The notes: a model not told the origin generated them from the letters alone. DNA of 64,000 nucleotides from a phage (PV636258.1); one strand, 5' to 3'. Counted from the first letter of the stretch, positions 11,129-50,948 are shown. Numbers and translations are program-made.

Positions 11129-11158
11129 AAAAAGAAATCCCCCTGTATTTAGGGGGAT
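11129..11158 (-). terminator. hairpin terminator containing CTAAATAC box
   Basis: stem atccccc/gggggat followed by TTCTTTTTCT on minus strand. Confidence 0.5.
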
Positions 11159-11415: not shown

Positions 11416-11985
11416 TTAGACAGGTTTAACGCCGATATATTTGGCAATGTCCGCAGCTAGGGTTTTTCCCTTACTGATGTCATGCTGTTTGCCAGCGACT
11501 GTGACAATTACATATGGATCGTCTTCTCCGCCGAAGTCGATTGCGACAGGTTTTCCAATACCAGGAATACCGGAATATTCAAACTCTGTACGACCGCTTT
11601 TACGAGATTTGCCAACGCCCAGCGCTTTACCGATCATCTTATCCATGTTCGCCAATTCTTGGGCATAGGATTCTGTGACCTGACCTTTGCTGGCATCTTT
11701 CCCAAAGAAGAACTCAAAACCGTCATGAACGGCAACCACATCTTTACCGACAGAAACTGCATGAACCTGGTCCGGTGTGAGTTTTACTTTGGTGGTGTTG
11801 CCGTTAGTCAATTCCAGATTATAGATGTCGGCCTGATTATCTGGAGTGATCTGGGTTACGGTGGCACCAGTACACCATTGGGTTCCGTCGGCCTGTTTGG
11901 TGATGGTTACACTTTTGCCTTGTATGCCGCCATGAGTTTGCGGTTGTTGAGCTTGTTCTTTAAAATATTCGATAAACGGTTTCAT
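11416..11985 (-). CDS. hypothetical protein (189 aa), late-promoter context
   Basis: ATG 11985 with AGGAGA SD; CTAAATAC 25 nt upstream. Confidence 0.6.
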   Translation of the reverse strand: MKPFIEYFKEQAQQPQTHGGIQGKSVTITKQADGTQWCTGATVTQITPDNQADIYNLELTNGNTTKVKLTPDQVHAVSVGKDVVAVHDGFEFFFGKDASKGQVTESYAQELANMDKMIGKALGVGKSRKSGRTEFEYSGIPGIGKPVAIDFGGEDDPYVIVTVAGKQHDISKGKTLAADIAKYIGVKPV

Positions 11986-12010
11986 CGTGGATCTCCTAAG
12001 GATTTTGATG

Positions 12011-12017
12011 TATTTAG
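12011..12017 (-). promoter_or_regulatory. late-promoter-like box CTAAATA
   Basis: minus strand gggCTAAATACatc 25 nt upstream of ATG 11985. Confidence 0.4.
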
Positions 12018-12036
12018 CCCCCGAAGGGGCTATGAC

Positions 12037-14766
12037 TTATTTCAGACTAATCTGAAGATTACCACCCAGCGATTGTTCATATTCACTGTATGCACTATCA
12101 CCATTACTCATAGCCCATTCGTCGGATTGGCGAGCGCGTTCAAGGGTCATGAGATTTGGCTCGGTAGGATTATAGCCTTTAGATTTCGCGTCGTTGTATA
12201 CCGTTTGCAGGTATTGGTTGGCACGGTTGATCTGATCCTTGAATTCACGATATGCTCCTTCGGTCGTATTGCGACGGAAAGTGATATCCCAAGCAACATT
12301 CAGAACTGTACCATTACTGGCTGTGTATACCTGCCAATCCAGATCTCGTCCATTAGGAGCGCTGTCACGAATGGATTCGGCATAGGTGGCCAGATCACCT
12401 GCATTCTTACCTCCAGCAGCCTGATCTTTAGCCCGAGCCAGAGCATCAATGACTGCTGTGCGGTTCCTGGACTGCGCCAAATCTTTGTCTTGGAACATAA
12501 TCGCGCCAAATTTACTGACAGTGATGTCATTCAGGAACAGATTGTTAGGGTTATAGTTTGATGAACTGAGGTGGCTCAGTTGCGACGCTGCGTCTTTCAG
12601 GCGTCGAGAAATCTCATCCAATGCATCTTGCACTGATTTGACAGACAACGAAATATCATATCCATTGCTGTCTACTACATTTCGACCATTTTCAGTCAAC
12701 ATGGTGGTGATGTTGGCTTTGTTTCGATCGAAGTCGTAAGTTACGTTGGTAACGAATCTTGCGGCTTGCAACTTGCTGCCAGCAGGGAACTGGAAATCCC
12801 ACGCTACAGAGAAGCCATGAACGGTTTCACCAAAAAATTTAGCATTGCTTGGTACTTTGATGTTTGCAGTGATCACTGCATTTTCACTGGAATTGGTGTT
12901 GATTTCACCAAAGATAGTACGCTCGTCGGAAGATTGAACCAACAGAGTATCTTTTCCACGCCAATCATAGCGGACTTTGAATGTTGTACGAGGAAACTCT
13001 TTCATCAGATCAAGTTTGACCGCCTTGCCCAAGGTAAACCGATTCAGCAGAGCGTCAGCGATCTTCAATGTGAAAGAACCGCAATCAACGTAAGAATATC
13101 CCTGAGAACGGGAAATTTTTTGAATCGGATATGGGGCACCGTTAATAGGAACAACACGGCATTCTACTTCTCCTGCAAATTGAGAATCGGCTGCACGGGA
13201 GATTGCGCCCACTATTTCATAAGCGGCGTTTTTCACGTCTCCTTCCAGCATAAGTTGGTCATGACCAGACAAATCTGATACTACTTCTACAGAAAGTTTT
13301 CCGTTGACAATTCCCCAGAAATAAACCTGAATGTCCAGACCACCCGAAGTACGATATTTGCCCGCACCGATTCGTGTTAGTTTCTCACCTGCATACATAC
13401 CGACCTGTTGTGGAGCATATGTATCAACGATACCCAAGATGCGGGCGATATAACCCTGGTTGCGCAGATCATCCATAGAACCGGTTTTTGGAAGAGTTTT
13501 CATGTCGACGGGAGCAGTAGCCCCTATTCCAAATTCAACATATGCCACAATCTTGCCGCCGGACTTCAGTTCCCACCCCATTCCCTGACGGTCAGAAGCT
13601 GCCATGATTTTGCGATCCACTTCACCGCGACCGACATATTCTTTGTTGAATACGGTCACCTGAGCGATAGATTGGGAGCGGGCAATCTTCGCCATTGCGC
13701 CATCTTTGACCATGATGGCCAGATCATTGGAACTCAGAGTCACATCGTTCGCACCGACTACCTTCACAACAGAACTGAAGATACCGTTGGACTTCGCCAT
13801 GATTGAAATGTTCCAGTCAGGATTGGTAGAATCTGAATTGCTGGTGTCAACATCCACAACAAGTACAACCTGCCCGCCTTTCTTGAACGTGTACTGGTCA
13901 TACAACCCTTTCTTCTGTTTAGACATGTCTGCGCCGATTAAGTCCTGGTTGGTGAAACCGCGCTTCATGCTCCAGGATACTTCTGTGCCATCCAGGTATT
14001 TATCAAAATTGTAGCCATAGAAGGTGGCAACTTCACGGGAACCGCTCACCAGTCGGACGTAGTTTCCGCGGATAGGGTCGCGACCATTCTTCAATTCAAG
14101 GCTAGTGTCGGAAGAGTTATACCAATCACGGTTGACTTCAACCTCTGAACTGTTGTAAGAAGATGAAGTCCCCACATCCAGAGTATCGTTCTGAACCGGA
14201 ACGTCACCGACTTTGTCCGGATCATCCCATGTGACACCTTTCATTTTCGGGCCATCAAATACCTGAGCAGGATCCTTACCTTTACGCACAACCCATACAA
14301 ATGCACGATCAGGGATAGGGGTATACGTCAGGTCCATGACATTGAGCTTCTGCTTCAGGCCGGACTGACGGATGATCTTCGGCAGGAGGGTAACACCACG
14401 TTCCAATGCTTTCTTGGAGAAGTTAATTGCAAAGCCGTCAATGGTTTTACCCAAAGGCGTCGCCATGAATTGCTTTGTTGCTTCAATCATGGATGCGATA
14501 ACGCGCATCGGATTCTTGAAACGACCGATGGCATCGGGATATGTGGAACCACGCTTCTGACCGATAAAGACTTGGCGAACATTCTTGCCTAGACCTTGTG
14601 GGGTATAGAATTGAATACGGAATTCTTTTTCGTCTTCATCAACAAATGTGAAGAAAATGTCGCCAGCGTTCTTCTTGCCGAATGTCAATTCATACGGGGA
14701 TGAGTTAAACGCTTCGTCTAATTGTTTAGACTCTTCAAGAAAGTTCAAGAAAGATGGGATGGCCAT
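12037..14766 (-). CDS. large hypothetical protein (909 aa)
   Basis: long uninterrupted ORF, AGGAGA SD; no motif recognised. Confidence 0.7.
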   Translation of the reverse strand: MAIPSFLNFLEESKQLDEAFNSSPYELTFGKKNAGDIFFTFVDEDEKEFRIQFYTPQGLGKNVRQVFIGQKRGSTYPDAIGRFKNPMRVIASMIEATKQFMATPLGKTIDGFAINFSKKALERGVTLLPKIIRQSGLKQKLNVMDLTYTPIPDRAFVWVVRKGKDPAQVFDGPKMKGVTWDDPDKVGDVPVQNDTLDVGTSSSYNSSEVEVNRDWYNSSDTSLELKNGRDPIRGNYVRLVSGSREVATFYGYNFDKYLDGTEVSWSMKRGFTNQDLIGADMSKQKKGLYDQYTFKKGGQVVLVVDVDTSNSDSTNPDWNISIMAKSNGIFSSVVKVVGANDVTLSSNDLAIMVKDGAMAKIARSQSIAQVTVFNKEYVGRGEVDRKIMAASDRQGMGWELKSGGKIVAYVEFGIGATAPVDMKTLPKTGSMDDLRNQGYIARILGIVDTYAPQQVGMYAGEKLTRIGAGKYRTSGGLDIQVYFWGIVNGKLSVEVVSDLSGHDQLMLEGDVKNAAYEIVGAISRAADSQFAGEVECRVVPINGAPYPIQKISRSQGYSYVDCGSFTLKIADALLNRFTLGKAVKLDLMKEFPRTTFKVRYDWRGKDTLLVQSSDERTIFGEINTNSSENAVITANIKVPSNAKFFGETVHGFSVAWDFQFPAGSKLQAARFVTNVTYDFDRNKANITTMLTENGRNVVDSNGYDISLSVKSVQDALDEISRRLKDAASQLSHLSSSNYNPNNLFLNDITVSKFGAIMFQDKDLAQSRNRTAVIDALARAKDQAAGGKNAGDLATYAESIRDSAPNGRDLDWQVYTASNGTVLNVAWDITFRRNTTEGAYREFKDQINRANQYLQTVYNDAKSKGYNPTEPNLMTLERARQSDEWAMSNGDSAYSEYEQSLGGNLQISLK

Positions 14767-22280: not shown

Positions 22281-23048
22281 ATGTCAGAACGCGCATATCG
22301 TTTCAGTCTGACCGCCCCAGAAATTGAGCGTTTGCTCTTGTCTATAAATGATTCCATACAAAAGCTGGACATCATTTATGACTACACGGCGGGTGGGACT
22401 GAAGGTCAAGTCGCAGCTGCGTCAGCTGTCAAAAACATGTGGCTAAAACTTAATGAGATGGTCACAGGTGAAGGTCTTAAAGACGCAATCAATGCAGCTA
22501 ACGACAGCAACGTATTCACCGATTATTATAAGTCTATTTTAGATCGCGAAACCTGGAAATTTATTGGTTCTCCGGCAGATTTATTAGCAAGGGACGATAT
22601 AGACACTTCCAATTTTGAAGGCGGTGAAGTAATCCTCCTACAAAAGAACGCTTCGGGCAACCCAGAATTCCAATACTGGAAAAGAACTCCTGTGGCAGGA
22701 GGTGATCCAATATTTGGTTGGGGATCTGTTTATGAAGGAAACTCCAACGACTCTTCTATTGATATTCCGGTTGTTGGGACCAGCATACTGAAGACCATCC
22801 CAAAAGCATTGTTTCATATGGTCGAATTCCGAGTACATGCTCGAGAGTCTACCCTCGGTCATTGGCAGGACACTGATGGCAAAATCGGTTATCGTGGTGA
22901 AGATCTGATTTATAGCCTGTATAATCATGTTCAAACCAAACCGATCGCAAATATATCTTTCAGCCAAGATGTGGACAATATGATTATCACGATAACGACA
23001 CTTGAACCAAATATCAAGTGCCATTTATCGTTTATTGCGGGTTATTAA
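22281..23048 (+). CDS. hypothetical protein (255 aa) on opposite strand
   Basis: ATG 22281 with GAGGA SD 8 nt upstream; fills a gap with no convincing minus-strand gene; convergent overlap with helicase stop. Confidence 0.5.
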   Translation: MSERAYRFSLTAPEIERLLLSINDSIQKLDIIYDYTAGGTEGQVAAASAVKNMWLKLNEMVTGEGLKDAINAANDSNVFTDYYKSILDRETWKFIGSPADLLARDDIDTSNFEGGEVILLQKNASGNPEFQYWKRTPVAGGDPIFGWGSVYEGNSNDSSIDIPVVGTSILKTIPKALFHMVEFRVHARESTLGHWQDTDGKIGYRGEDLIYSLYNHVQTKPIANISFSQDVDNMIITITTLEPNIKCHLSFIAGY

Positions 23049-25263: not shown

Positions 25264-26055
25264 TTATTTGCCGACGTTCAGAATTTTACCTGAGCCGGAT
25301 CCGTCAACGATCAGAGTACATTTCCCGCTGTTGGCGCAAGATTGCAACACCATGTTATATTCGTGTTGTAAATATTCAGATGTCAGAGATGTCGTCAGTT
25401 TCTGATTCGCCTTGGCTTCTTGGTCGCGAATTTCAACGTTCTTTCTTGCTGTATCCAAACGTTTGTCAGCCATGACATTATCACGGATAGATTGCTCAAT
25501 CGAAGGATCTGTCAGCGCCTTTTTCACCAACACGCGTGTGATTGTGAACATGCCAGGCGCAGCAGTTTCCAATTGCTGCTGGGTGCGTTCCTTGATCATC
25601 TTTTCTAACTCAGCCCGTTGGGTGTGAATTGTCATAGAATCCAAAGAAGAAACGGCGTCCATCGTTGAGGATGCTGCGGCGGTTTTAACCAGGTTGAATC
25701 CCACCGCTATCGTGCCGTCACCGAGTTCAGCGCTCTGACCTGCAAATTTGGTATGGAACCAAGGAACCTTCGCGACGTTCGGTGTGTAATAAACGTCCAC
25801 ATCCAGATCTTCCAAGGTCAGGTTGTCTTTGGCCTTTGGCGTCATTTTCGTCAGACTCACGACGGCTTCTTTAGTCGTATAGACATCTACACTTGAAACG
25901 AAACTGGTGTAGATACCTGCGGTTACAGGGTTCATGTCCACTTCACCCCATTGGGTTCGAACACCGACGTTTCCTTCATCGATAACACCGCCGCAGCCTG
26001 AAAGAAGGCTTGTTGCTAGGACCATAATTGCGCCAAATACCAGTTTCTTGAACAT
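25264..26055 (-). CDS. SPFH (band-7/stomatin-prohibitin)-domain lipoprotein
   Basis: lipobox LLSGC after hydrophobic leader; SPFH-like core (EGNVGV...TKEAV...KDNLTLEDLDVDVYYT); AAGGAG SD; ATGA-coupled to upstream small membrane ORF. Confidence 0.65.
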   Translation of the reverse strand: MFKKLVFGAIMVLATSLLSGCGGVIDEGNVGVRTQWGEVDMNPVTAGIYTSFVSSVDVYTTKEAVVSLTKMTPKAKDNLTLEDLDVDVYYTPNVAKVPWFHTKFAGQSAELGDGTIAVGFNLVKTAAASSTMDAVSSLDSMTIHTQRAELEKMIKERTQQQLETAAPGMFTITRVLVKKALTDPSIEQSIRDNVMADKRLDTARKNVEIRDQEAKANQKLTTSLTSEYLQHEYNMVLQSCANSGKCTLIVDGSGSGKILNVGK

Positions 26056-28426: not shown

Positions 28427-28747
28427 TTATCTTTGATTTCCAACGAAATTAGTTGCAATTTCACGGCACATAGTCAGATCTTTAATAGTCTGTTTGCTGT
28501 TGTCTGCGGCAGATTCCATCATAGATAAATCAAGCGCATTCTCTATCTGGTCCACACTATAGAGATCAAGGCGTTTCAATTCACCTTCATAATCAGATAA
28601 AAGAATTGATGTATCCTTATCATCCGGATGGAATTGTTGATATGTAGACAACCAAGCAGCACAAATATTCAACTTACTGGCCGGAGCTGCCAATACTTGG
28701 GAAGACATGAAAGTGCACAGGAATAACAATAAGATTTTGATTTTCAT
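28427..28747 (-). CDS. secreted protein with signal peptide (106 aa)
   Basis: MKIKILLLFLCTFMSSQVLAAP signal peptide; AAGGAG SD. Confidence 0.55.
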   Translation of the reverse strand: MKIKILLLFLCTFMSSQVLAAPASKLNICAAWLSTYQQFHPDDKDTSILLSDYEGELKRLDLYSVDQIENALDLSMMESAADNSKQTIKDLTMCREIATNFVGNQR

Positions 28748-29433
28748 CTTTCGTTCTCCTTCATCATATTATCACAGTCAATTCTTGTTTGCTTGAGTTC
28801 ACGGGAAAGCCTTGGATCATCAAGATTGACAGACAAATTAGTGGAAAGATCTTTCAAACCATTCTGAACACGGTCTTCATAATAATGATCATTTTCCACC
28901 AGCCATGCTCTCAGGCCAAGGGCGCGAGTCCGCCATTCCTTTTTCAAACGTCGATCAGATTCTTGATCAGCACTGTATTCAAATACTCGGATACATTGGT
29001 TGCCATCATTGATGAGATCCAGCTGACGTCGGCCAACCTGCACACCTTTTTGTAATGCTGGAGAAGGAAGAGAACGGCACTGTCTTACGGTCATTCGTCC
29101 TTGTGTGACCATACGACCAGTCATGATGAGATCGCCAGCCTCCATGCCTCCTCGGTTAAATTCTTCGTCGTTCATATATCCTTTCAGGTTGAATGCGCCT
29201 TGCTTATATCGATTAAACTCGATACCAGCATTTACAACGGCATCTGTGACATTACCTGTGGCCCAGAGTTCAGCAAAGTTCTCTATGGAACCAGTTTTGT
29301 CTATAGCCACGGCTTGGGAGAACCCAGCACAGTAGGAAAGATCAGACCACAGTTTTTCACCTGTGGAATTCAGCTTGGCTGTGGCAGGAAGTGCCAGACC
29401 AGCCAGCACAACCGCGATGATTAAACGTTTCAT
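28744..29433 (-). CDS. secreted/periplasmic protein with signal peptide (229 aa)
   Basis: MKRLIIAVVLAGLALPATA signal peptide from ATG 29433 with AAGGAG SD; early-type promoter upstream. Confidence 0.55.
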   Translation of the reverse strand: MKRLIIAVVLAGLALPATAKLNSTGEKLWSDLSYCAGFSQAVAIDKTGSIENFAELWATGNVTDAVVNAGIEFNRYKQGAFNLKGYMNDEEFNRGGMEAGDLIMTGRMVTQGRMTVRQCRSLPSPALQKGVQVGRRQLDLINDGNQCIRVFEYSADQESDRRLKKEWRTRALGLRAWLVENDHYYEDRVQNGLKDLSTNLSVNLDDPRLSRELKQTRIDCDNMMKENER

Positions 29434-29461
29434 GGTGATTCTCCTTATTTCATTGGATAAA

Positions 29462-29490
29462 ATGATAGGGCTGTCACCATGTTGAGTAAA
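29462..29490 (-). promoter_or_regulatory. sigma70-like early promoter TTTACT-N17-TATCAT
   Basis: minus strand TTTACTcaacatggtgacagcccTATCAT upstream of 29433. Confidence 0.35.
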
Positions 29491-29517
29491 GGGTTTCAAT
29501 AAACTATCGTATTCAGA

Positions 29518-38018: not shown

Positions 38019-38243
38019 TCAGACGATCTTACCGCCGTCACAAGGCCGAGTATCACCGGAGTTGTATGCCAGCATCCCCTGCTTCATCAAACGTCTCGGC
38101 CCAGAAACTGATTTCTGTTTCCTCAGCGTGTTGCAAAACCGAGTATTGCCTGGGTAAGGAGTGTACACGAGACGTCCTTCCATACGGGCTTTCAGAAGAA
38201 ACTCATCAGTCGCTTTACACAGTTTGAACAATTTCCAGCTCAT
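38019..38243 (-). CDS. hypothetical protein (74 aa)
   Basis: ATG 38243, ATGA overlap with HNH gene stop. Confidence 0.4.
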   Translation of the reverse strand: MSWKLFKLCKATDEFLLKARMEGRLVYTPYPGNTRFCNTLRKQKSVSGPRRLMKQGMLAYNSGDTRPCDGGKIV

Positions 38244-39169
38244 TTTTCACCCTTGTATCTTTTTAACCATTTTACGCATTTTAATGGTTCCCAGCCTTTA
38301 TTGAAACGTTCGATTATCCCACTGGTGGCATTAAACGCCTTCAGATCTTTTGTTCCATACACGAACAAGAGGGCTTCTGAACGTTTCATCGTATTCAGGG
38401 CTTCAAGGAATTGATCAGCTTTCTCCCAATATACGTCATTGTCGGGGTTCCATTTACCCTTCTCCCAAGGCATCTTAGCCAACATGCCTTTCTGAGCGTT
38501 TTCTTTCTGTTTGGCGCGTTGCTCTGGTGTGAATGAGTTGGTTAAGTCCTTCCCATAATTGGGATTGAGTTCCCCAAGTTTAGCTTTCCTGGCACGTTCA
38601 GAAAATTGTTCTAAATCCATGTTGGCGCGGCGTTTCTCTAAAACCCGCCTTTTATATTCAGGATCAGAAGCCATCCTTTCATGGATTTTCATCAATCCTT
38701 TGGTAATTTTCTTGACTTGCTCTGGAGTTCTCTTATACCCATATTGGGGATTATTCTTTCCTCTTCTCCCATACATTGGGTTGTTTGCCCCGACGCATTT
38801 AGAGACACCCTTTGTGAGTTTGGATATTCTTTGTCCAAATTCTTTCCTTAACTTTTCGTAAAGGTGAGAATTAAATTTTATGCCCGTTGGTGTATACCTA
38901 CCCCCACGGCTCATCAAAAGAACAGCATATACCATATCAGAATTCGGGAAAGCCAAGGCCAAACACACATGGGCAAGATAATGTTGCCTGCCAGTAAGTC
39001 TTGCCAAATTGATCTTGTCTTTGGAATATTCAGGGAACATGCTCTTGGGAAGGATGTGGTGTAATTCGGTGTAGTCACCATCAGGATATTTGAAAGATTG
39101 AATCATCCTCAAATACTTCTTGATAAAATGCGGTTTACCGCCTTTAGAAATCAATAATTCGTAAAACAT
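38240..39169 (-). CDS. HNH homing endonuclease with NUMOD-like repeats (free-standing)
   Basis: ELHHILPK...HYLAH His-Me finger motif; repeated NPMYG/NPQYG/NPNYG motifs; GGAG SD. Confidence 0.7.
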   Translation of the reverse strand: MFYELLISKGGKPHFIKKYLRMIQSFKYPDGDYTELHHILPKSMFPEYSKDKINLARLTGRQHYLAHVCLALAFPNSDMVYAVLLMSRGGRYTPTGIKFNSHLYEKLRKEFGQRISKLTKGVSKCVGANNPMYGRRGKNNPQYGYKRTPEQVKKITKGLMKIHERMASDPEYKRRVLEKRRANMDLEQFSERARKAKLGELNPNYGKDLTNSFTPEQRAKQKENAQKGMLAKMPWEKGKWNPDNDVYWEKADQFLEALNTMKRSEALLFVYGTKDLKAFNATSGIIERFNKGWEPLKCVKWLKRYKGEK

Positions 39170-44382: not shown

Positions 44383-44748
44383 ATGAAGCAATTTGTTGGT
44401 TTATACGCAGTAGGGGAAGACCAAGAAGCAATTCTTTCCATATCAGAACAACGTTCGTCATTAAAAGGCGTTTATTTACAAAGCCTTTTCTGTACATCGG
44501 GGTTTGTTGTGACACCGATGATGGTGATACCATTACTCCCAAATAACAAAGGTCTGTATGTTGGTATTATTCAACAAGGCCAGGCGCGGGAAGTGAAAGT
44601 TGTTCCATTGCTGGCATCTAATGAAGAATTGTTTTCTCAGATTCTTGAGCCGAAAGTGCTACAACAATGTATTGGCACGATCGACTGTTTATTTGGTTCC
44701 AACAAAGAAGGCGAGGCAACCCCCGCCTATGTGAACCAAGATCTTTGA
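44383..44748 (+). CDS. hypothetical protein (121 aa) on opposite strand
   Basis: only long ORF in the AT-rich divergent region; weak SD. Confidence 0.3.
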   Translation: MKQFVGLYAVGEDQEAILSISEQRSSLKGVYLQSLFCTSGFVVTPMMVIPLLPNNKGLYVGIIQQGQAREVKVVPLLASNEELFSQILEPKVLQQCIGTIDCLFGSNKEGEATPAYVNQDL

Positions 44749-44753
44749 AATAG

Positions 44754-46253
44754 TTAGAGCGCCACTTTTTTCATTTTAACAGGGTGGCGCTCCATAAGAT
44801 AAAATTTATATCTCTCATGAGAATGCCTGAGAGCATGGTTGTAGGAACCGTTGTAGCGCAGGTTGTCTACCAGGTCCCAGATTCGCGCAACATCCTTAGA
44901 GGAATGCTGACGCATCAAACGCCCCAATGTCTGTATAACACGGATATAAGATTTGCTGGGATGGGCCAATATCAGATGATGGAGTTTTTTGATAGATACG
45001 CCCTGTTGCATAGTACCATATGATGCTAACAGTGTTATATCTTCCCCTTCTTCCATAGCAGCCTGAATCTGTTTACGAACTTCTGTCTTGACTTCCCCGT
45101 TGATGACGAATACGTTTTTCTTGACTGCCGATAGCATTTCATAAACCAACATCATGTGTGCATCGATACGTTCGAACATTACTGCGACGTTCCCTTTCAA
45201 AGATAGAGCCATTCGGGCTATCAATTCATTGCGGCGTTCGTTAGCAATGAGGAATTCTATTTCCTTTTGATACTCAGCACCGTGCATTTCAATACAGTCT
45301 GCCATAGGATGTATGACTTCAATCATATTAACATTGATGTCCGCCGCATATCCTAGATCGATTAAATCGCGCGCTGTAATAATTTTATGATATGCACCAA
45401 AGTGAGCAACGACTTGTAACCCTGCGACCTTTGTATTCGCCAGGGTTCCGGTTACTCCCAAACGTTGATCAGCGTTAATACAGTTGTTCAAGATGTAAGA
45501 CAATTTATCTGATTTTGATGTATGTACTTCGTCGACGACGATATCTCCAAATTGATGGAACCACTCTTTGGGTTGGTTCTGGATACCTTGCCAAGTTGAA
45601 ATAACTATGGGTTTGAAAATCTCTTTCGTTGCCCCTTCGTATATTGTCTGGACGTTCATCAATGGCTTCCATTCTGTCCCGTGGCTATATTCTTCGAAGT
45701 TGTCATACAACTGAGTCACCAAATGAATGGATGGTACAACGATTAACGTTCTCAGATTACTTTCGAGGGCATCTCTGCGTTGCCTGTAGTAACGAGCCAT
45801 GATGTACAAAATAAAGGATTTGCCGGCACTCGTGGCAGCTTCGAGGACACATCTGCTTTGGCGTATTGCTGTGGAAACAGAATCAAATTGATAATCGCGG
45901 ACAATCGCTTTTTGATATTGTTTGTTTTCGTCTCGGTACACCGCATTCAATGTATCGATGAACGCATGAATTTCTTCATCCGGAATATCTTGAATATATT
46001 TTAAGGCCGGATCTAATTTGATGGTGTAACCGTTCATCTTACAGAATTTGAACACCTCAAATAACAGGCCGATGTCGATAAGCCCAGAACTCTTTGTGAA
46101 CAGCCGCACTACGCCGTCCCATTTACTGAACGGATTCGGTTGGAAATTAGGATCTTCAAATTTGAAGTAATCGTTGAGTTCTTCACGGATATAATCCTCG
46201 GCGAGGATCCGCATTCTAACTTCGTTCACTTTGACTATTTGGATCTCAGACAT
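44754..46253 (-). CDS. uvsW: UvsW-like DNA/RNA helicase
   Basis: colinear with T4 UvsW (TSAGKS, DEVH, SGEV..E.R, LHHLILAH, QTLGR); CTAAATAC box 26 nt upstream of ATG 46253. Confidence 0.9.
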   Translation of the reverse strand: MSEIQIVKVNEVRMRILAEDYIREELNDYFKFEDPNFQPNPFSKWDGVVRLFTKSSGLIDIGLLFEVFKFCKMNGYTIKLDPALKYIQDIPDEEIHAFIDTLNAVYRDENKQYQKAIVRDYQFDSVSTAIRQSRCVLEAATSAGKSFILYIMARYYRQRRDALESNLRTLIVVPSIHLVTQLYDNFEEYSHGTEWKPLMNVQTIYEGATKEIFKPIVISTWQGIQNQPKEWFHQFGDIVVDEVHTSKSDKLSYILNNCINADQRLGVTGTLANTKVAGLQVVAHFGAYHKIITARDLIDLGYAADINVNMIEVIHPMADCIEMHGAEYQKEIEFLIANERRNELIARMALSLKGNVAVMFERIDAHMMLVYEMLSAVKKNVFVINGEVKTEVRKQIQAAMEEGEDITLLASYGTMQQGVSIKKLHHLILAHPSKSYIRVIQTLGRLMRQHSSKDVARIWDLVDNLRYNGSYNHALRHSHERYKFYLMERHPVKMKKVAL

Positions 46254-46279
46254 CACTAATTTCCCCCAATATTATGGAG

Positions 46280-46286
46280 TATTTAG
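46280..46286 (-). promoter_or_regulatory. late-promoter-like box CTAAATA upstream of uvsW
   Basis: minus strand cgCTAAATACtcc overlapping stop of upstream gene. Confidence 0.45.
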
Positions 46287-47029
46287 CGATCCGCCCAGAT
46301 TCCTTTCTGTTCTTTATCCATTTTGTGATACAGACGGACACGGTCAAACATTTTAGAAATAACGTCTTTGCGATCGAATTCGATTATGGTGGGAACAAGG
46401 GCATTTTCGTTGGATATAATATTGATTAAACGCTCTATCTTGACATTAAACATTTGTTGAAACATGACTGAGTATAGACACAATTGAATACTATAATCTT
46501 CTATCATGCTTCGAGTTTTTAGGGTGTTAGATGTTTTGAAATCGATTATGCTTGGAATTCCTTCGTAAACCCCGATGAGGTCAACACGACCAGCAAGACC
46601 CAGGACTTCGCTATATAATGGAATCTCTTGTGCATATATCTTGCTCATTTTGTTAAGGTAGGGGAAAACCTGTTTGAACATAAACACGTATTCCCCTGCA
46701 GCTTCCAGAACTTCCTTCATTGGTCTGTTTTTGAGATACAACTCACAAGCCAAATGAAGTTTTTCCCCACGGTCTGCGCAACGATGTGTTTCTATATCAG
46801 CAGCTTCATGCCCCAACTTGTCCCGCCAGGCTTCTAACCATGTATGGTCACCAGTACGCCCTAACATGGTCGTCACTGAAGTTAGTTTGACTCCAGTGGG
46901 AGAAACATAGTGACGACCATTTTCGGTAGTTACGCAAGTCAGTTCCTTAAACGGCAAGGAATATTGCTGAAATGTATGATGACGATTTTCAAAGTCATTA
47001 AGTTTGCGCAAAGCCTGTAGAGAAACCAT
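46283..47029 (-). CDS. RecB-family PD-(D/E)xK nuclease-like protein
   Basis: GRVDLIGVYEG...IIDFKTS matches D / E.K-type RecB nuclease motifs; TAATG coupling with upstream gene. Confidence 0.55.
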   Translation of the reverse strand: MVSLQALRKLNDFENRHHTFQQYSLPFKELTCVTTENGRHYVSPTGVKLTSVTTMLGRTGDHTWLEAWRDKLGHEAADIETHRCADRGEKLHLACELYLKNRPMKEVLEAAGEYVFMFKQVFPYLNKMSKIYAQEIPLYSEVLGLAGRVDLIGVYEGIPSIIDFKTSNTLKTRSMIEDYSIQLCLYSVMFQQMFNVKIERLINIISNENALVPTIIEFDRKDVISKMFDRVRLYHKMDKEQKGIWADR

Positions 47030-47484
47030 TACATCCCATCCAAATATTTTCGCCAATCAATAGCATTCTTCACTTCATATCCGAGTTTGTTCAAACGATC
47101 TAAGCAACTTTCGATGAACTTGACTTTGGCTTTCTGCTCTTGAAGCATGCTAGACAATTCGATATAATCATCATCTGCTTTTACCCATACGTCTATATCA
47201 GATTTCAGGGGTCGAACTTTTAATGGGCGTTCAACATAAACGTTGGGCGGCAATTCCCCTGCATAAAATCGGCGTAAATAGAGATCTATTTGGCGGAATT
47301 TGCCAGTTAGATACTCCAGATATCTTCCTTCACGAATATAATGGCGTTGCACAGTCATCCACGAACGACCAATTTTCAATGACATTTGGTCTAAGTTCAT
47401 GTCTTCAGGATTTACCGAAATAAGAGGTTCCAATTCTACCATTATATCTTCGGTTTTCATCGTTTCAAGTTTTGTTTCGCTCAT
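47029..47484 (-). CDS. possible UvsY-like recombination mediator (151 aa)
   Basis: weak resemblance to T4 UvsY (LRRFYAGE vs LDYYSG) and proximity to uvsW; AGGGAA SD. Confidence 0.4.
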   Translation of the reverse strand: MSETKLETMKTEDIMVELEPLISVNPEDMNLDQMSLKIGRSWMTVQRHYIREGRYLEYLTGKFRQIDLYLRRFYAGELPPNVYVERPLKVRPLKSDIDVWVKADDDYIELSSMLQEQKAKVKFIESCLDRLNKLGYEVKNAIDWRKYLDGM

Positions 47485-47522
47485 GATTTATTCCCTGCTG
47501 TTTCAACTCTCTGTATTATAAC

Positions 47523-48020
47523 TTATTGTTTATCAATTTCGCGGGTGACGCGAGTCGGAGTCAGTTTCAAATATTTGAACGTGACAGTCGTGACCAGTTG
47601 GGGAACCGCAGCATCCACATCCACCAATACGTTATCCAAAGCTGTGGGACGGGCTTCTTCCAACAACAATTGTAGACCAACAGGTCGATTCATGTTATCA
47701 AGAAGGTCGATGGTGATGTCGCGGCTGACAGCTAAATCAGATCCAGCATTAGACGCAATCCAATTGTAAATCTGTTCCCAGTTGTACCAACTCTCATCGA
47801 TAACGAACGTAAATACGATGGGGTCATACGTGAGACGTTCTGAAGGTATGGAGTTGAGCACATCGCCAGGGGATGGTCCCTCGATACCTTCAGAATACAC
47901 TCCAGGAATACTGAAGTCATGTATTGAACGAGTAAGCAATATCAGGTCTCCGATAGTTAAGCGCCATTTATCGGAAGCCGCGAAATTAGGATTTTCGTTT
48001 TTGAATTGTACACCTGTCAT
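47523..48020 (-). CDS. tail-tube-family protein (gp19 paralogue; possibly tail tube terminator)
   Basis: pattern shared with the window's gp19 (DKWRLT vs QHRWRVT; PIVFTFV vs LPVTFINV; DLLDN vs ELLDAN). Confidence 0.45.
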   Translation of the reverse strand: MTGVQFKNENPNFAASDKWRLTIGDLILLTRSIHDFSIPGVYSEGIEGPSPGDVLNSIPSERLTYDPIVFTFVIDESWYNWEQIYNWIASNAGSDLAVSRDITIDLLDNMNRPVGLQLLLEEARPTALDNVLVDVDAAVPQLVTTVTFKYLKLTPTRVTREIDKQ

Positions 48021-48083
48021 GTTAGCACCTTTGCTGTGGAGAACGTTTTAGTGTTCCTGATACGCGGATTCAGAAAATGGATC

Positions 48084-48704
48084 ATGACGATGATAATGGT
48101 GCTTGCACTCACAAGTTGCCGTATCTTTGTCACGTCCGTCATTTCTGTAACCGACCTCTGGGATCCTGAAATCAGAACCATACCTGTTAACATCTCAGCC
48201 GACATTGATAAATGCAATAAAAATATTCTGAATCAAGTAGTATCTGATTTTCAGAACTTCCAGACTCTTCAAGCTGTTGGTTGTTTTGATGATAACAACC
48301 AGTCACTGAGACCATACTGGAAAACCACGATTCCCCTATTGAGGAAAGGTGACGAAGGAAAGATCCCATATCTATCCGCAAGTATTTATTACTCTCAGAA
48401 TAATAGCATCATAGCGACTTTCAATCCTTCTTTCTTTGACAAACTTAGAAGGAATACTCAAGCAAGGGACGTAGAAATCACCAGAGACGTTGCAATATCA
48501 TTTCAGATAGTTAATAACACCAAATCTCCGATCCGAATTGCCACTCAGGGTGTTTTCGTTAATGGATCTGCTGTGGGTAATGAAATGAACATCTATGAAA
48601 TAAGACCAGGCGGTAAAGTATGGATTCGAATGAGTGATGTTGGGGTGAACTCCCTGGTGATGGAAGGTATCGAACCAGTGGGAGTTCTCCCCGCTAGACA
48701 TTGA
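48084..48704 (+). CDS. putative lipoprotein (206 aa) on opposite strand
   Basis: MTMIMVLALTSC lipobox-type signal peptide; divergent from 47523..48020; abuts stop of 48705..49433. Confidence 0.4.
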   Translation: MTMIMVLALTSCRIFVTSVISVTDLWDPEIRTIPVNISADIDKCNKNILNQVVSDFQNFQTLQAVGCFDDNNQSLRPYWKTTIPLLRKGDEGKIPYLSASIYYSQNNSIIATFNPSFFDKLRRNTQARDVEITRDVAISFQIVNNTKSPIRIATQGVFVNGSAVGNEMNIYEIRPGGKVWIRMSDVGVNSLVMEGIEPVGVLPARH

Positions 48705-49433
48705 TTATTTCAGGGACTCTTTTAATTCTGGAGTCCCTATTTTATCAATAACGCCTCCAGCACAGAGATCTTTGGCCCATTCTCCAAGAACATTCGCAAA
48801 AGAGAAGTTTAGACATTCTTTGATCATACTTTCAATATGAGCAAGTTCTGCAGCTATCCCATCGGTGATATCGTTTATAACTCCATTGACGGCGGTTATT
48901 GCCTCATTGATATGTCCTGTTACTTCAGCAGCCAATTGCTGTAGTTTTGCCATACCTTCTGAGGCACCTTCCATAATCATGTCATACAATTCCGATATCT
49001 TGTTAGTCACAGTCTGGAGAGCGCCTTCCATAGCGTTTAACCATTGGCGGCCTAGATCCTGAACAACACCGAATGCTTTGTTGATCAGGTCACAATTGTT
49101 TGGTTCCCGTGATATACTTTTCAAACCTGATTTATATGAAACGGAAGTCCCAATTCTTGAATACGCTTCATTTATGCTCTGGTCGCCATATGTGTTCAGT
49201 GTCGTTATCCCCGTGTTGGCAGAGCTATACATGTTTGTGGCTGCTGTAAGTTTATCTGGTGTTAATCCACCTGCTGACATAGCCAACTGCATTTCCGGAG
49301 TCGCGTTGGCAGTTATCAATGGTATATTGGTACTACCACTGGTGATTAAATCCTGTGAGGGACCGGAGAGGGACGGAAGCGGGTTGCTAAATGCGTTACC
49401 AGAGGAAAGGACATCGTAGATTTGTGCGTTCAT
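48705..49433 (-). CDS. hypothetical protein (242 aa), late gene
   Basis: ATG 49433 preceded by TATAAATACCCCC embedded in 26-nt palindrome. Confidence 0.6.
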   Translation of the reverse strand: MNAQIYDVLSSGNAFSNPLPSLSGPSQDLITSGSTNIPLITANATPEMQLAMSAGGLTPDKLTAATNMYSSANTGITTLNTYGDQSINEAYSRIGTSVSYKSGLKSISREPNNCDLINKAFGVVQDLGRQWLNAMEGALQTVTNKISELYDMIMEGASEGMAKLQQLAAEVTGHINEAITAVNGVINDITDGIAAELAHIESMIKECLNFSFANVLGEWAKDLCAGGVIDKIGTPELKESLK

Positions 49434-49455
49434 AAAATACCCCCAATTTTGGGGG

Positions 49456-49463
49456 TATTTATA
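49456..49463 (-). promoter_or_regulatory. T4-type late promoter box TATAAATA within perfect palindrome 49435..49460
   Basis: minus strand TATAAATACCCCCAAAATTGGGGGTATTT, 22 nt upstream of ATG 49433. Confidence 0.5.
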
Positions 49464-49464
49464 A

Positions 49465-49635
49465 TCATGGAAGATGATAGATAAAATTCTCGCAGAACTT
49501 TTTGGTGTATTTCTTTAGAAATATAAATTTAGGTTCGCGTGGTGTATTTTTCAGATCATTTAGTGTGATATAACTGATTCGCGCCAGAAAGTACATGGTA
49601 AAAGCGACGCAAAGAATCAAAATTAATTGCAGCAT
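49465..49635 (-). CDS. small membrane protein (56 aa)
   Basis: hydrophobic helix LILILCVAFTMYFLA; GGAG SD; TATAAATA box at 49667..49674. Confidence 0.45.
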   Translation of the reverse strand: MLQLILILCVAFTMYFLARISYITLNDLKNTPREPKFIFLKKYTKKFCENFIYHLP

Positions 49636-49666
49636 AGCTAACTCCATATGGGTGTGAAGGCAAACA

Positions 49667-49674
49667 TATTTATA
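49667..49674 (-). promoter_or_regulatory. late promoter box TATAAATA
   Basis: exact T4 late consensus on minus strand upstream of small membrane ORF. Confidence 0.45.
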
Positions 49675-50092
49675 ACAATCGTTTGGTTTTGGGTTTGCCC
49701 ATGAGAGTGATATTGACATTGACTCCTGCTTTTTTCATGCGGGTAATCATGTCTTGCGTCCCAGTAGACGAACCATCCCATAACGCAATTCCAAAGACCT
49801 CAAGACCTTTTTGTTTGGCCAGGGTTGTAGCTTTGTCTAACATATCTTTGTTACGTTGGTTTCCTGCGCCTTTCCCATATATCGTGTGATAATCCTTAGG
49901 GATCCCCATTGGCGTAACATGGACATAATTGATTTCACACCAATCACGAGATATCAAGTCCACACCAACCGCTTCACCTTCTATAAAAGTTTCGATCTCG
50001 TGGGGATCTAACAGTTCATCCAGTTTGGCGAAGATTTTATCCCGCTCGGTTATTGAGCGGGAACCTGTAATGAGCACGACATATTTCTTCAT
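49670..50092 (-). CDS. SLOG/DprA-like (DUF2493-type) protein
   Basis: YVVLITGSR and WDGSSTGT motifs. Confidence 0.45.
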   Translation of the reverse strand: MKKYVVLITGSRSITERDKIFAKLDELLDPHEIETFIEGEAVGVDLISRDWCEINYVHVTPMGIPKDYHTIYGKGAGNQRNKDMLDKATTLAKQKGLEVFGIALWDGSSTGTQDMITRMKKAGVNVNITLMGKPKTKRLL

Positions 50093-50097
50093 AGAAC

Positions 50098-50415
50098 TCA
50101 CAGCGCCCCAAGATTGCCGATGACATAAAGGGAGCACAGGGGAGTCCCTGACGAGCGGGGTTCGATTGTCATCCCACTCAGGCGGATCAGTTCCAGCAAG
50201 CCGTCGGTGGTCTGATACGCACGAGTCGAACCGTTTGGACGATATAGCTCCAACTCGGTTCGCCCTTCCTTTAATGCGTTACGGATGCGTGTGAATACGC
50301 TGTGGGCTTGATATTTTTGACGTAGAATATCTAAACGGGTGATGAGATTTCGACTGCGGCTGCGACGCCCCTTTGAAGAAACAACTAATTTCATTTCTGG
50401 TGTTTTACAAGCCAT
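50098..50415 (-). CDS. hypothetical basic protein (105 aa)
   Basis: ATG 50415. Confidence 0.5.
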   Translation of the reverse strand: MACKTPEMKLVVSSKGRRSRSRNLITRLDILRQKYQAHSVFTRIRNALKEGRTELELYRPNGSTRAYQTTDGLLELIRLSGMTIEPRSSGTPLCSLYVIGNLGAL

Positions 50416-50483
50416 GTTATAGTCCTCTATTTGTAGGGGTTGGGTATGATTTTAACATACCCGTTCAAATGGTTTAGAACAAA

Positions 50484-50948
50484 TTACAGATCTTGGCACT
50501 GATCGCAATATTCGTCGTATGTGAATGTCTCATCACACAGGCCATCACGCATCATATCGGCCTTGGCTTCGCCAAACATTTTCAGGGTGATAACGTTGCC
50601 GTCTAAATCTTTACGAAGTTCGTTCGGCTTGGTTTCTATGAAGTCGAACACCACAAAGAACCCTTCGGTGACATATTTGATGGTTTTGTTGCTCAGCTTA
50701 CGGATGCCACCATTCTTTTTGAAGATAGAGGTGCGGAGGTTTTCGAATTCAGCCAGATTGTCATCGTGATTCTTGATGGCGTTCAGCATTGCGTCAAGGT
50801 CGATTTCAGGACGAAGCATTTTGACCTGATCTTCGCGGTCATAAGAAGTGAAAGATTCTATGTTGGTGATGCCCAGAGCGTTTTTAACAAACGCGTCAAA
50901 TTTGGTGAAATTGTTGAATGCCCAGACGGAGATTTTTACGGTTGTCAT
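50484..50948 (-). CDS. hypothetical protein (154 aa)
   Basis: ATG 50948 downstream of early promoter. Confidence 0.55.
   Translation of the reverse strand: MTTVKISVWAFNNFTKFDAFVKNALGITNIESFTSYDREDQVKMLRPEIDLDAMLNAIKNHDDNLAEFENLRTSIFKKNGGIRKLSNKTIKYVTEGFFVVFDFIETKPNELRKDLDGNVITLKMFGEAKADMMRDGLCDETFTYDEYCDQCQDL

What the first reader, a model, noticed from the sequence alone, without database searches (positions are those of the whole stretch)
48084..48704. Opposite-strand putative lipoprotein inside the late gene block
The plus-strand ORF begins with a lipobox-type signal (MTMIMVLALTSC) and is divergent from a tail-tube-family gene. Phage lipoproteins are classically superinfection-exclusion or receptor-blocking factors (Llp/Cor-type). 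Its stop abuts the stop of the converging late gene with no terminator.
Basis: partly seen in the sequence, partly recalled or inferred. Interest (0 to 1): 0.5.

Follow-up and report, generated by a model that had tools for sequence, protein, structure and literature searches.

The report
Conserved Ackermannviridae lipoprotein gene (DUF7424)
This is a real, family-wide conserved gene of a Kuttervirus (Ackermannviridae) phage that almost certainly encodes a lipid-anchored periplasmic protein made in the infected cell and absent from the virus particle; what it does there, possibly keeping other phages out, is untested.

Summary
The window is a Kuttervirus genome, 99.5% identical to Salmonella phage SJ3. 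The plus-strand ORF is a genuine gene of Pfam family DUF7424 (E 1.4e-60). Some GenBank records already call it "putative lipoprotein".

Its true start is GTG 48051, not ATG 48084. GTG and a GGAG ribosome site are invariant in six genera. This start gives a textbook SPII signal: MFLIRGFRKWIMTMIMVLALTS|C.

The lipobox Cys is invariant in 75 homologues down to about 17% identity. Two further near-invariant Cys suggest a periplasmic disulfide.

The position, opposite-strand between the gp3-like tail-completion gene and a DUF7217 virion gene, is kept from Salmonella to Vibrio phages. Two virion proteomes detect both neighbours but not this protein.

A pLDDT 93 model has no meaningful match in the PDB. 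The protein is not related to Llp, Cor, Bor or spanins.

Distant homologues sit in temperate phages at cargo positions, notably CI repressor → DUF7424 → integrase. That is circumstantial support for an exclusion or defence role. Against a strict Llp analogy, it is a core gene, it does not adjoin a receptor-binding gene, and in Vibrio relatives it carries the family's late-promoter motif.

Verdict: the lipoprotein call is solid; the exclusion function is plausible but unproven; interest is modest.

The parts
48051..48704 (+). DUF7424 prolipoprotein gene. It encodes 217 aa, starts at GTG and ends at TGA.
   Evidence: Pfam PF24199 E 1.4e-60 and phrog_3832. RefSeq SJ3 annotates the same start. GTG is invariant in six genera. 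There are 349 phage records with a tblastn match.
48039..48043 (+). Shine-Dalgarno GGAGA, 7 nt upstream of the GTG start.
   Evidence: TGGAGA is invariant in the six-genus alignment A2. No comparable site precedes ATG 48084 (read).
48051..48119 (+). SPII-type signal peptide. The n-region is MFLIRGFRK, the h-region is WIMTMIMVLA and the lipobox is LTSC. The lipidated Cys23 codon is at 48117-48119, and the +2 residue is Arg.
   Evidence: The PROSITE-type rule is met only with the GTG start. Cys is invariant in 75 of 75 homologues, and position -1 is S, G or A in 75 of 75.
48213..48284 (+). Codons of Cys55 (48213-48215) and Cys78 (48282-48284), a probable periplasmic disulfide pair.
   Evidence: Cys55 is present in 69 of 75 and Cys78 in 68 of 75 family members. 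Both are invariant among Ackermannviridae. That they form a disulfide is inferred.
48021..48050 (.). A 30-nt divergent intergenic spacer. It holds both ribosome-binding sites back to back and leaves no room for a promoter.
   Evidence: TAGCACCTTTGCTGTGGAGA is conserved. The reverse complement gives AAGGTG 6 nt before the minus-strand ATG (read).
47523..48020 (-). Divergent neighbour: the gp3-like tail completion and sheath stabilizer gene, which matches the 'tail tube' PHROG.
   Evidence: phrog_45 E 2e-33. Annotations. It is a confirmed virion protein in LIMEstone1 and Sajous1 gp168.
48705..49433 (-). Convergent neighbour: the DUF7217 virion protein gene, whose stop abuts the stop of the lipoprotein gene.
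   Evidence: PF23854 E 2e-102. It is a 'confirmed structural protein' in LIMEstone1 (ORF129) and is Sajous1 gp166, detected by mass spectrometry.
48712..48746 (+). Terminator-like hairpin for the plus-strand transcript: a 9-bp stem, a 9-nt loop and the tail AUUUUAUC. It is embedded in the 3' end of the convergent gene.
   Evidence: RNA fold of 48660-48780 gives -35.4 kcal/mol, z = -2.36. The hairpin is not conserved in other genera. Serratia 3M has its own intergenic terminator.
47809..47816 (+). Candidate late-type promoter element GTAAATAC for the lipoprotein gene, about 240 nt upstream, embedded antisense in the tail-completion gene. This is weak evidence.
   Evidence: It is invariant in six genera. 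Five of the 10 nucleotide-invariant synonymous codons of that gene cluster in this 8-codon block, against a background of 12%. TAAATA occurs only 10 times on the + strand, and 3 of those sites lie 160-240 nt upstream of the three real + strand genes.
49456..49463 (-). T4-type late promoter motif TATAAATA, 23 nt upstream of the DUF7217 gene. A transcript from it would run antisense through the lipoprotein gene towards the tail-completion gene.
   Evidence: Its context includes a cccccaaaattggggg hairpin. LIMEstone1 annotates a late promoter at the equivalent place. The antisense read-through is inferred.

Best explanation
The gene encodes a prolipoprotein of the DUF7424 family.

Shown from sequence and comparison:
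- Translation starts at GTG 48051 behind a conserved GGAG site.
- The first 23 residues form a Sec/SPII signal ending in the lipobox L-T-S-C.
- The mature protein of about 195 aa has a compact fold that is confidently predicted. It consists of an alpha/beta half followed by a beta-sandwich half and starts directly after the Cys.
- It carries two further conserved cysteines.
- It is not part of the virion.

Inferred from the established lipoprotein pathway (Lgt, LspA, Lnt, Lol):
- Cys23 is diacylglycerol-modified, the signal is cut by signal peptidase II, and the new N-terminus is acylated.
- With Arg rather than Asp at +2, the protein is passed by Lol to the inner leaflet of the outer membrane and faces the periplasm.
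- There Cys55 and Cys78 form a disulfide.

Inferred from context: it is made in the infected cell, probably from a late-type promoter. It acts on the envelope to protect the infected cell or the progeny from further phage attack. The candidate mechanisms are blocking a conserved envelope component or entry step, or neutralising receptor-bearing debris. Its distant relatives, carried as cargo next to the repressor gene of temperate phages, would do the same for lysogens.
For: Real gene, correct start and signal.

Lipobox conservation: Cys 75 of 75, position -1 S/G/A 75 of 75, n-region K/R 74 of 75 across 14-71% identity. It is also kept in Serratia 3M (LIGGC) and in Vibrio phages (ISSC or LSSC).

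Conserved Cys55 and Cys78.

Fold: pLDDT 93.2, pTM 0.87.

Not in the virion: LIMEstone1 marks ORF127 and ORF129 as confirmed structural proteins but ORF128 only as 'putative signal peptide present'. Sajous1 CsCl-purified virions gave gp166 and gp168 but not gp167.

Core status and synteny: the gene is found from Kuttervirus to Vibrio Ackermannviridae at 22-24% identity.

Cargo position in temperate phages:
- CI repressor -> DUF7424 -> integrase in 186/P2-like prophages of Enterobacteriaceae.
- In E. coli the same slot carries other small proteins, DUF2511 or YebY family.
- Another member sits on the side opposite to cro in a lambdoid early region.
- Another sits beside siphovirus tail-tip genes.

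Late-type promoter: CTAAATA or TTAAATA lies about 35 nt upstream of the gene in three Vibrio phages. In one of them (K476) the same motif also lies upstream of the major head gene.

Some GenBank records independently call the protein 'putative lipoprotein'.
Against: - No experiment bears on the function.
- There is no homology or fold similarity to Llp, Cor, Bor, TraT, T4 Sp/Imm or any PADLOC defence protein.
- A strictly conserved, syntenic core gene across hosts as different as Vibrio and Salmonella is unusual for a receptor-specific exclusion factor.
- Late expression, if real, is unlike the early genes llp, imm and sp.
- Some family members are plain chromosomal genes, for example in Photorhabdus between tctCBA and a two-component system. 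The family function may therefore be a general envelope one.
- 13 of 75 members have Asp at +2, so outer-membrane location is not a family constant.
- The fold begins immediately after the Cys with no flexible tether, which may impair Lol sorting (own knowledge of work on disordered linkers in lipoprotein sorting).
- In this window no promoter for the plus strand was identified with confidence.
Confidence: 0.4

Rival explanations
1. Lysis-related envelope factor. A late-made outer-membrane lipoprotein would help to disrupt or time the disruption of the outer membrane at the end of infection. It would be a spanin-like or spanin-accessory role carried out by a non-canonical protein.
For: - It is a core gene of the family.
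- Vibrio relatives carry a late-promoter motif in front of it.
- It has a lipobox like o-spanins.
- The only spanin-annotated gene in the window (28427-28747, phrog_3843 'Rz-like spanin') and its upstream partner (28744-29499) have ordinary signal peptides without a lipobox. The family's spanin equipment is therefore not settled.
Against: - The mature protein is about 195 aa with a confident compact fold. Typical o-spanins are short and largely unstructured (PMC6139136).
- There is no adjacent, overlapping or embedded i-spanin gene. Both neighbours are virion proteins.
- There is no C-terminal membrane helix, so it is not a unimolecular spanin (read).
- Homologues sit in the lysogeny operon of P2/186-like prophages. 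P2-type phages have their own LysB/LysC spanins (named in PMC6139136).
- Homologues also sit in bacterial chromosomes.
Confidence: 0.2
2. General periplasmic binding or protective lipoprotein borrowed from bacteria. It could, for example, inhibit a peptidoglycan hydrolase or bind an envelope glycan or lipid. The phage would use it to stabilise the envelope of the infected cell until lysis. It would not be directed against other phages.
For: - The family is widespread in bacteria as single chromosomal genes, sometimes next to envelope genes (BON/LysM; Photorhabdus).
- N155 is invariant and S195 nearly so, within the conserved N-D-T and L-S-D/N-V motifs, which could form a ligand site.
Against: - There is no operon partner that would suggest a pathway.
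- Many non-Ackermannviridae members are on prophages or mobile islands.
Confidence: 0.2
3. Virion or assembly component belonging to the tail module in which the gene is embedded.
For: The gene lies between two virion protein genes, and this position is conserved across the family.
Against: - It has a conserved SPII signal and conserved periplasmic cysteines.
- It is on the opposite strand.
- It was not detected in two virion proteomes that did detect both neighbours.
- Its homologues sit in non-structural regions of temperate phages and in bacterial chromosomes.
Confidence: 0.04

Closest known systems
Pfam DUF7424 (PF24199) / PHROG 3832
   Same: The protein is a full-length member: E 1.4e-60, profile positions 2-195 of 196. 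It is 100% identical to database proteins named 'DUF7424 domain-containing protein' or 'hypothetical protein', and 96-99% identical to proteins named 'putative lipoprotein' in phages pertopsoe, heyday and barely.
   Different: Nothing differs; this is the family. The family has no described function, no solved structure and no paper in the searchable library.
Phage T5 Llp, the lipoprotein that inactivates the FhuA receptor
   Same: Both are encoded by a lytic phage, are lipid-anchored facing the periplasm, and are not virion components. Both genes sit on the opposite strand next to a tail gene (the T5 arrangement is from my own knowledge). Llp is cited as a superinfection-preventing lipoprotein in PMC9409062.
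   Different: - There is no sequence or fold relationship.
- The mature protein is about 195 aa against about 60 aa.
- The neighbour is a tail-completion gene, not the receptor-binding protein gene.
- It is a core gene across hosts with unrelated receptors.
- It has a candidate late promoter rather than an early one.
- The target is unknown.
Cor (phi80, N15, T1) and lambda Bor: lipoproteins or outer-membrane proteins expressed from prophages as cargo genes
   Same: Distant DUF7424 members occupy cargo positions in temperate phages: next to the repressor gene, or beside tail-tip genes. The cargo ('moron') concept is reviewed in PMC3594210.
   Different: - Pfam reports no match other than DUF7424.
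- The window copy is in a strictly lytic phage.
- No phenotype is known.
o-spanins (lambda Rz1, T4 PseT.2) and unimolecular spanins (T1 gp11)
   Same: It has an outer-membrane-type lipobox, probably late expression, and conserved periplasmic cysteines.
   Different: - There is no partner i-spanin gene beside or within it.
- It is globular and much larger.
- It has no C-terminal membrane helix.
- Its homologues sit in lysogeny modules and chromosomes.
T4 Sp (spackle) and Imm: exclusion proteins of a lytic phage acting in the periplasm or inner membrane
   Same: It could act on a step common to all relatives, such as the tail lysozyme or DNA transfer. That would fit a gene conserved across the whole family.
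   Different: There is no homology. Sp and Imm are early proteins and are not lipoproteins (own knowledge). This comparison is purely analogical.

Membership tests
Bacterial lipoprotein (SPII substrate) | Lipobox [LVI][ASTVI][GAS]C with the Cys at residues 15-35, a preceding uncharged hydrophobic stretch, and K/R near the N-terminus (PROSITE-type rule) | tested here: met
With the GTG 48051 start the Cys is residue 23, the lipobox is LTSC and the n-region has R5, R8 and K9. SignalP and LipoP were not available.
Bacterial lipoprotein (SPII substrate) | The lipobox cysteine is conserved in homologues | tested here: met
   Cys in 75 of 75, position -1 S/G/A in 75 of 75, position -3 L/I/V in 67 of 75. 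This holds in Serratia and Vibrio phage homologues too.
Bacterial lipoprotein (SPII substrate) | Actual lipid modification and LspA cleavage | not testable with these tools
   This needs palmitate labelling, globomycin treatment or mass spectrometry.
Pfam DUF7424 | Score above the Pfam gathering threshold over the full domain | tested here: met
   204.8 bits against a cutoff of 27, profile positions 2-195 of 196.
T5 Llp-type receptor-blocking lipoprotein | Sequence or structural homology to Llp | tested here: not met
T5 Llp-type receptor-blocking lipoprotein | Gene adjacent to the receptor-binding protein gene and co-varying with receptor specificity | tested here: not met
   The neighbours are a tail-completion gene and a DUF7217 gene. 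The gene is conserved across phages of Salmonella, Klebsiella, Dickeya, Serratia and Vibrio. A second paralogue in Vibrio phage 1.244.A does lie next to a tailspike gene.
T5 Llp-type receptor-blocking lipoprotein | Early expression | tested here: inconclusive
   No transcript data were found. No sigma-70-like promoter lies upstream on the + strand. A late-type motif precedes the gene in Vibrio relatives, and only a weak candidate exists in this window.
T5 Llp-type receptor-blocking lipoprotein | Blocks adsorption or infection when expressed | not testable with these tools
   This needs an expression and plating or adsorption assay.
Two-component spanin, o-spanin subunit | Lipoprotein gene embedded in, overlapping or adjacent to an i-spanin gene (type II membrane protein with coiled coils) | tested here: not met
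   Both neighbours are on the other strand and encode virion proteins.
Two-component spanin, o-spanin subunit | Short mature protein with little secondary structure | tested here: not met
   The mature protein is about 195 aa with a confident alpha/beta plus beta-sandwich fold, pLDDT 93. Family features are taken from PMC6139136.
Unimolecular spanin (T1 gp11 type) | N-terminal lipobox plus a C-terminal transmembrane helix | tested here: not met
   The C-terminus is ...EGIEPVGVLPARH, with no hydrophobic helix.
Known anti-phage defence systems (PADLOC-DB) | Match to a defence protein model | tested here: not met
   No match for the window protein or for four homologues, apart from one chance-level hit.

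The most novel reading that the evidence does not exclude
DUF7424 would be a large, unrecognised family of phage-borne envelope lipoproteins with a fold not seen in solved structures. It would be carried both as a core late gene by lytic Ackermannviridae and as repressor-linked cargo by P2/186-like and lambdoid prophages. It would exclude incoming phages by acting on a conserved periplasmic or outer-membrane step rather than on one specific receptor.
Probability: 0.25. Interest if true: 0.6.

Novelty: new member of a known kind. Interest (0 to 1): 0.35.

Why it matters
Ackermannviridae (Kuttervirus, Limestonevirus and others) are widely used for biocontrol and phage therapy. A family-wide envelope protein that changes how infected cells or lysogens respond to other phages would affect cocktail design and resistance.

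The family link found here runs between a core gene of lytic phages, repressor-adjacent cargo genes of temperate phages, and bacterial chromosomal lipoproteins. It gives a cheap, direct test: express the gene and plate phages. That could assign a function to a domain of unknown function with no structural relatives. If the test is negative, the gene remains an ordinary conserved hypothetical.

Tried and rejected
- PADLOC and NCBIfam gave no hits.
- Literature. No paper mentions DUF7424. No transcriptome of an Ackermannviridae phage was found. The review PMC11721090 does not mention lipoproteins, spanins, promoters or superinfection.
- Apparent counter-evidence, rejected. The Sajous1 paper reports a 'tail completion protein gp214' followed by hypothetical proteins gp215-217, all found in virions. 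I checked whether gp215 was this gene. It is not: that locus is elsewhere, and the homologue here is gp167, which was not detected.
- Spanin alternative. The spanin supplementary tables held no entries for these phages. The spanin-annotated genes in the window look non-canonical. 'The phage already has spanins' therefore could not be used as an argument.
- A minus-strand AATAAATAC inside the gene (48383-48391, coding SIYYS) looked like an embedded late promoter for the tail-completion gene. Runs of nucleotide-invariant codons of that length occur elsewhere in the gene, so I do not count it.
- The 89-codon plus-strand ORF 47782-48051, whose TAG overlaps the GTG start, is antisense to the tail-completion gene and is not conserved. 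I treat it as spurious.
- A scan of genome contigs with a distant-member alignment failed for lack of conserved stretches. Contexts were obtained by exact look-ups instead.
- Base composition shows no sign of recent acquisition.

Full report
**What the window is**

Bases 46000-50500 are 99.5% identical to Salmonella phage vB_SalM_SJ3. They match 264 phage records in all, mostly Kuttervirus and other Ackermannviridae. Almost all genes in the window are on the minus strand. The finding concerns one of very few plus-strand genes.

**Is the ORF real, and where does it start?**

The open frame 48006-48704 hits Pfam DUF7424 (E 1.4e-60, full length) and phrog_3832 (E 4e-113). A database search gave 53 clusters of 51-100% identity, all carrying the same Pfam domain. 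Almost all of those with a source name or a long contig are Ackermannviridae phage genomes of about 150-160 kb. A tblastn search found the gene in 349 phage records from Salmonella, Vibrio, Klebsiella, Escherichia, Dickeya, Serratia, Erwinia, Aeromonas and other hosts.

Records disagree on the start: RefSeq SJ3 uses the codon equal to window 48051, while SPTD1 uses an ATG equal to 48090. An alignment of the divergent region from six genera settles it. GTG at 48051 and TGGAGA a few bases upstream are invariant, whereas the downstream ATGs are not.

From GTG the product begins MFLIRGFRKWIMTMIMVLALTSC. It has a positively charged n-region, an 11-residue hydrophobic core, the lipobox L-T-S-C with Cys at residue 23, and Arg at +2. 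A PROSITE-type rule applied to all 2018 start/ORF combinations of the window picks out only this protein and an SPFH/band-7 lipoprotein (25264-26055) as credible.

**Is it a lipoprotein?**

The test is conservation.

- All full-length Ackermannviridae homologues keep the Cys.
- So do Serratia phage 3M (35% identity, LIGGC) and Vibrio phages at 22-24% identity (ISSC, LSSC).
- A profile search of 1.84 billion representative proteins found 81 relatives of about 190-230 aa, nearly all starting with a classical lipoprotein signal. All ten that were tested are DUF7424 by Pfam.
- In a 75-sequence alignment (14-71% identity to the window protein) the Cys is present in 75 of 75. Position -1 is S, G or A in 75 of 75, position -3 is L, I or V in 67 of 75, and 74 of 75 have K/R in the n-region.
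- Cys55 and Cys78 are present in 69 and 68 of 75, N155 in 75 of 75 and S195 in 70 of 75.

I therefore regard export and lipidation as very likely. A Cys55-Cys78 disulfide in the periplasm is a reasonable inference. Arg at +2 predicts Lol-dependent transfer to the outer membrane under the enterobacterial +2 rule (own knowledge). However, 13 of 75 family members have Asp there, and the fold starts right after the Cys with no tether. The membrane assignment is therefore less certain.

**Structure**

With 23 close homologues the model was mediocre (pLDDT 70). With 75 diverse ones it became confident (pLDDT 93.2, pTM 0.87): an alpha/beta half followed by a beta-sandwich half.

- A profile search of PDB sequences gave nothing.
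- In the viral structure library only DUF7424 proteins of Ackermannviridae match.

The fold gives no functional lead and has no close solved relative.

**Context in the phage**

The order uvsW - exonuclease - uvsY - tail completion (minus strand), then DUF7424 (plus strand), then a minus-strand gene, is found throughout the family. The genomes checked are Kuttervirus, Taipeivirus-like Klebsiella phages, Limestonevirus, Agtrevirus, Miltonvirus, Campanilevirus and unclassified Vibrio phages.

- In the enterobacterial genera the divergent spacer is only about 30 nt. It contains both ribosome-binding sites back to back, so neither gene can have its promoter there.
- The convergent stops abut with no spacer in five phages examined.
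A 9-bp hairpin with a U-rich tail starts 8 nt past the stop, inside the end of the convergent gene. The scan missed it because its loop is 9 nt. It is specific to Kuttervirus, and Serratia 3M has a classical terminator in a 29-nt spacer.

**Not a virion protein**

The LIMEstone1 record marks the two flanking products (ORF127 and ORF129) as confirmed structural proteins. It marks the homologue of this gene (ORF128) only as having a putative signal peptide (methods in PMC3296691).

In CsCl-purified Sajous1 virions, gp166 (DUF7217) and gp168 (tail completion) were detected. gp167, which I mapped as the homologue, was not (PMC10892097). A possible confusion with that paper's 'gp214-217 operon' was checked and dismissed.

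**Timing**

The motif CTAAATA occurs eight times in the window, all on the minus strand, mostly 22-50 nt upstream of start codons. One of these sites, upstream of uvsW, lies within a few bases of the spot that the SPTD1 record labels 'Kuttervirus late gene promoter'. TATAAATA precedes the DUF7217 gene.

No such motif and no sigma-70-like site lies just upstream of the lipoprotein gene. In Vibrio relatives the spacer is longer, and CTAAATA(C/T) or TTAAATAT sits about 35 nt upstream of the gene on its own strand in three of four phages examined. In K476 the same motif precedes the major head gene.

In the enterobacterial genera the nearest candidate is GTAAATAC, 240 nt upstream.

- It is invariant in six genera.
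- It sits in a block holding five of the only ten nucleotide-invariant synonymous codons of the tail-completion gene.
- TAAATA is rare on the plus strand (10 sites), and three of these sites lie 160-240 nt upstream of the three real plus-strand genes.

I take this as moderate evidence for late transcription in the family and weak evidence for the specific element in this window. If the minus-strand late transcript from 49456 continues to the tail-completion gene, it runs antisense through the whole lipoprotein gene. That is inference only.

**Relatives outside the family**

Exact look-ups of distant members gave these contexts.

- A Photorhabdus chromosomal gene between tctCBA and a two-component system.
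- Four Enterobacteriaceae prophages of the 186/P2 type with the order CI repressor -> DUF7424 -> integrase on one strand, opposite apl/cII/fil/dhr and the replication genes. The repressor was confirmed by Pfam.
- A lambdoid early region, where the gene is the second gene on the side opposite to a cro-like gene. The first gene there could not be identified.
- A contig where the gene lies beside siphovirus tail-tip genes.
- A mobile island with an S24 peptidase fragment, umuC and a restriction-modification system.
- The edge of a Mu-like prophage.
- Two uninformative contexts.

In E. coli genomes the CI-integrase slot of related prophages carries other small proteins (DUF2511, YebY family) instead, so the slot is a cargo position. 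Genes there are co-oriented with the repressor and are expected to be expressed in lysogens. The concept is reviewed in PMC3594210 and PMC7067206. This is the best, though indirect, support for a host-envelope function that benefits the carrier, of which superinfection exclusion is the classical example.

**Comparison with known systems**

The protein works like a phage envelope lipoprotein, but it is not a member of the Llp, Cor, Bor or TraT families or of any spanin family.

- There is no sequence or fold match.
- The size and architecture are wrong for o-spanins or unimolecular spanins.
- There is no partner i-spanin gene.
- It differs from Llp in being a syntenic core gene, in its neighbour, and probably in its timing.

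It is a bona fide member of DUF7424, an uncharacterised family. The product is already named 'putative lipoprotein' in a few GenBank records.

**Verdict**

| Claim | My estimate |
|---|---|
| The product is a lipoprotein | about 0.9 |
| It acts in envelope protection or exclusion (leading hypothesis) | about 0.4 |
| Lysis-related role | about 0.2 |
| General periplasmic binding or protective role | about 0.2 |

Interest is modest: it is a known unknown, with a clear and cheap experimental path.

Noticed in passing
window 25264-26055 (-): There is a second phage-encoded lipoprotein in the window. It starts MFKKLVFGAIMVLATSLLSGC and has an SPFH/band-7 domain (Pfam Band_7; phrog_200 'lipoprotein'). 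The Sajous1 homologue was seen at low counts in virion mass spectrometry.
   Followed up: partly
window 28427-28747 (-) and 28744-29499 (-): This is a pair of overlapping genes. A related record annotates the upstream, 251-aa one as putative i-spanin. The 106-aa one matches phrog_3843 'Rz-like spanin'. Both products have ordinary cleavable-looking signal peptides, with no lipobox and no clear membrane anchor. The spanin assignment for Kuttervirus therefore looks doubtful.
   Followed up: partly
window, whole; sites 11146, 12011, 15962, 16549, 46280, 55615, 56833, 61614 (-): All eight CTAAATA motifs are on the minus strand, mostly 22-50 nt upstream of start codons, as expected for the family's late promoter. 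TAAATA is rarer than base composition predicts: 10 sites on the + strand and 21 on the - strand, against roughly 28 expected per strand.
   Followed up: partly
window 22281-23048 (+), 44383-44748 (+): These are two other plus-strand 'island' genes (phrog_3833 and phrog_4255, both of unknown function). Each has a plus-strand TAAATA 160-240 nt upstream (22122 and 44148). The second gene converges on uvsW with a 5-nt gap, an arrangement like the one in the finding.
   Followed up: no
window 38240-39169 (-): A homing/HNH endonuclease gene (phrog_655) is present here. It appears to be absent at the equivalent place in phage FrontPhageNews, judging from the gene order of that record.
   Followed up: no
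window 49433-49480 (-): TATAAATA followed by cccccaaaattggggg lies just upstream of the DUF7217 gene. This is a late-promoter motif next to a hairpin. Similar G/C-run hairpins flank the CTAAATA sites at 11146 and 12011.
   Followed up: no
L015 4001-4630 (Vibrio phage 1.244.A, record 88455-89084): Some Vibrio Ackermannviridae carry a second DUF7424 lipoprotein paralogue (MKKILVTLAAVAALSGC...). It lies at the end of a run of small genes, immediately upstream of a pectin-lyase-fold tailspike gene. This position is more Llp-like than that of the core copy.
   Followed up: partly
L010-L014 and E. coli hits H94-H105: The slot between the CI repressor gene and the integrase gene of 186/P2-like prophages is a variable cargo position. 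It holds DUF7424 in Enterobacter/Atlantibacter-type prophages. In E. coli it holds DUF2511 or YebY-family proteins.
   Followed up: partly
window 48383-48391 (-): AATAAATAC lies on the minus strand inside the lipoprotein gene, where it encodes the invariant SIYYS motif. It is invariant in five genera. It could be an embedded late promoter for the tail-completion gene, but codon-level conservation of this length also occurs elsewhere in the gene.
   Followed up: yes
window 11416-14766 (-): From gene order and size, I infer that this stretch corresponds to the Sajous1 gp214-gp215 part of the 'ferrojan horse operon' proposed in PMC10892097. That paper calls gp214 a tail completion protein, whereas the GenBank record lists it as a 795-aa hypothetical protein.
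   Followed up: no
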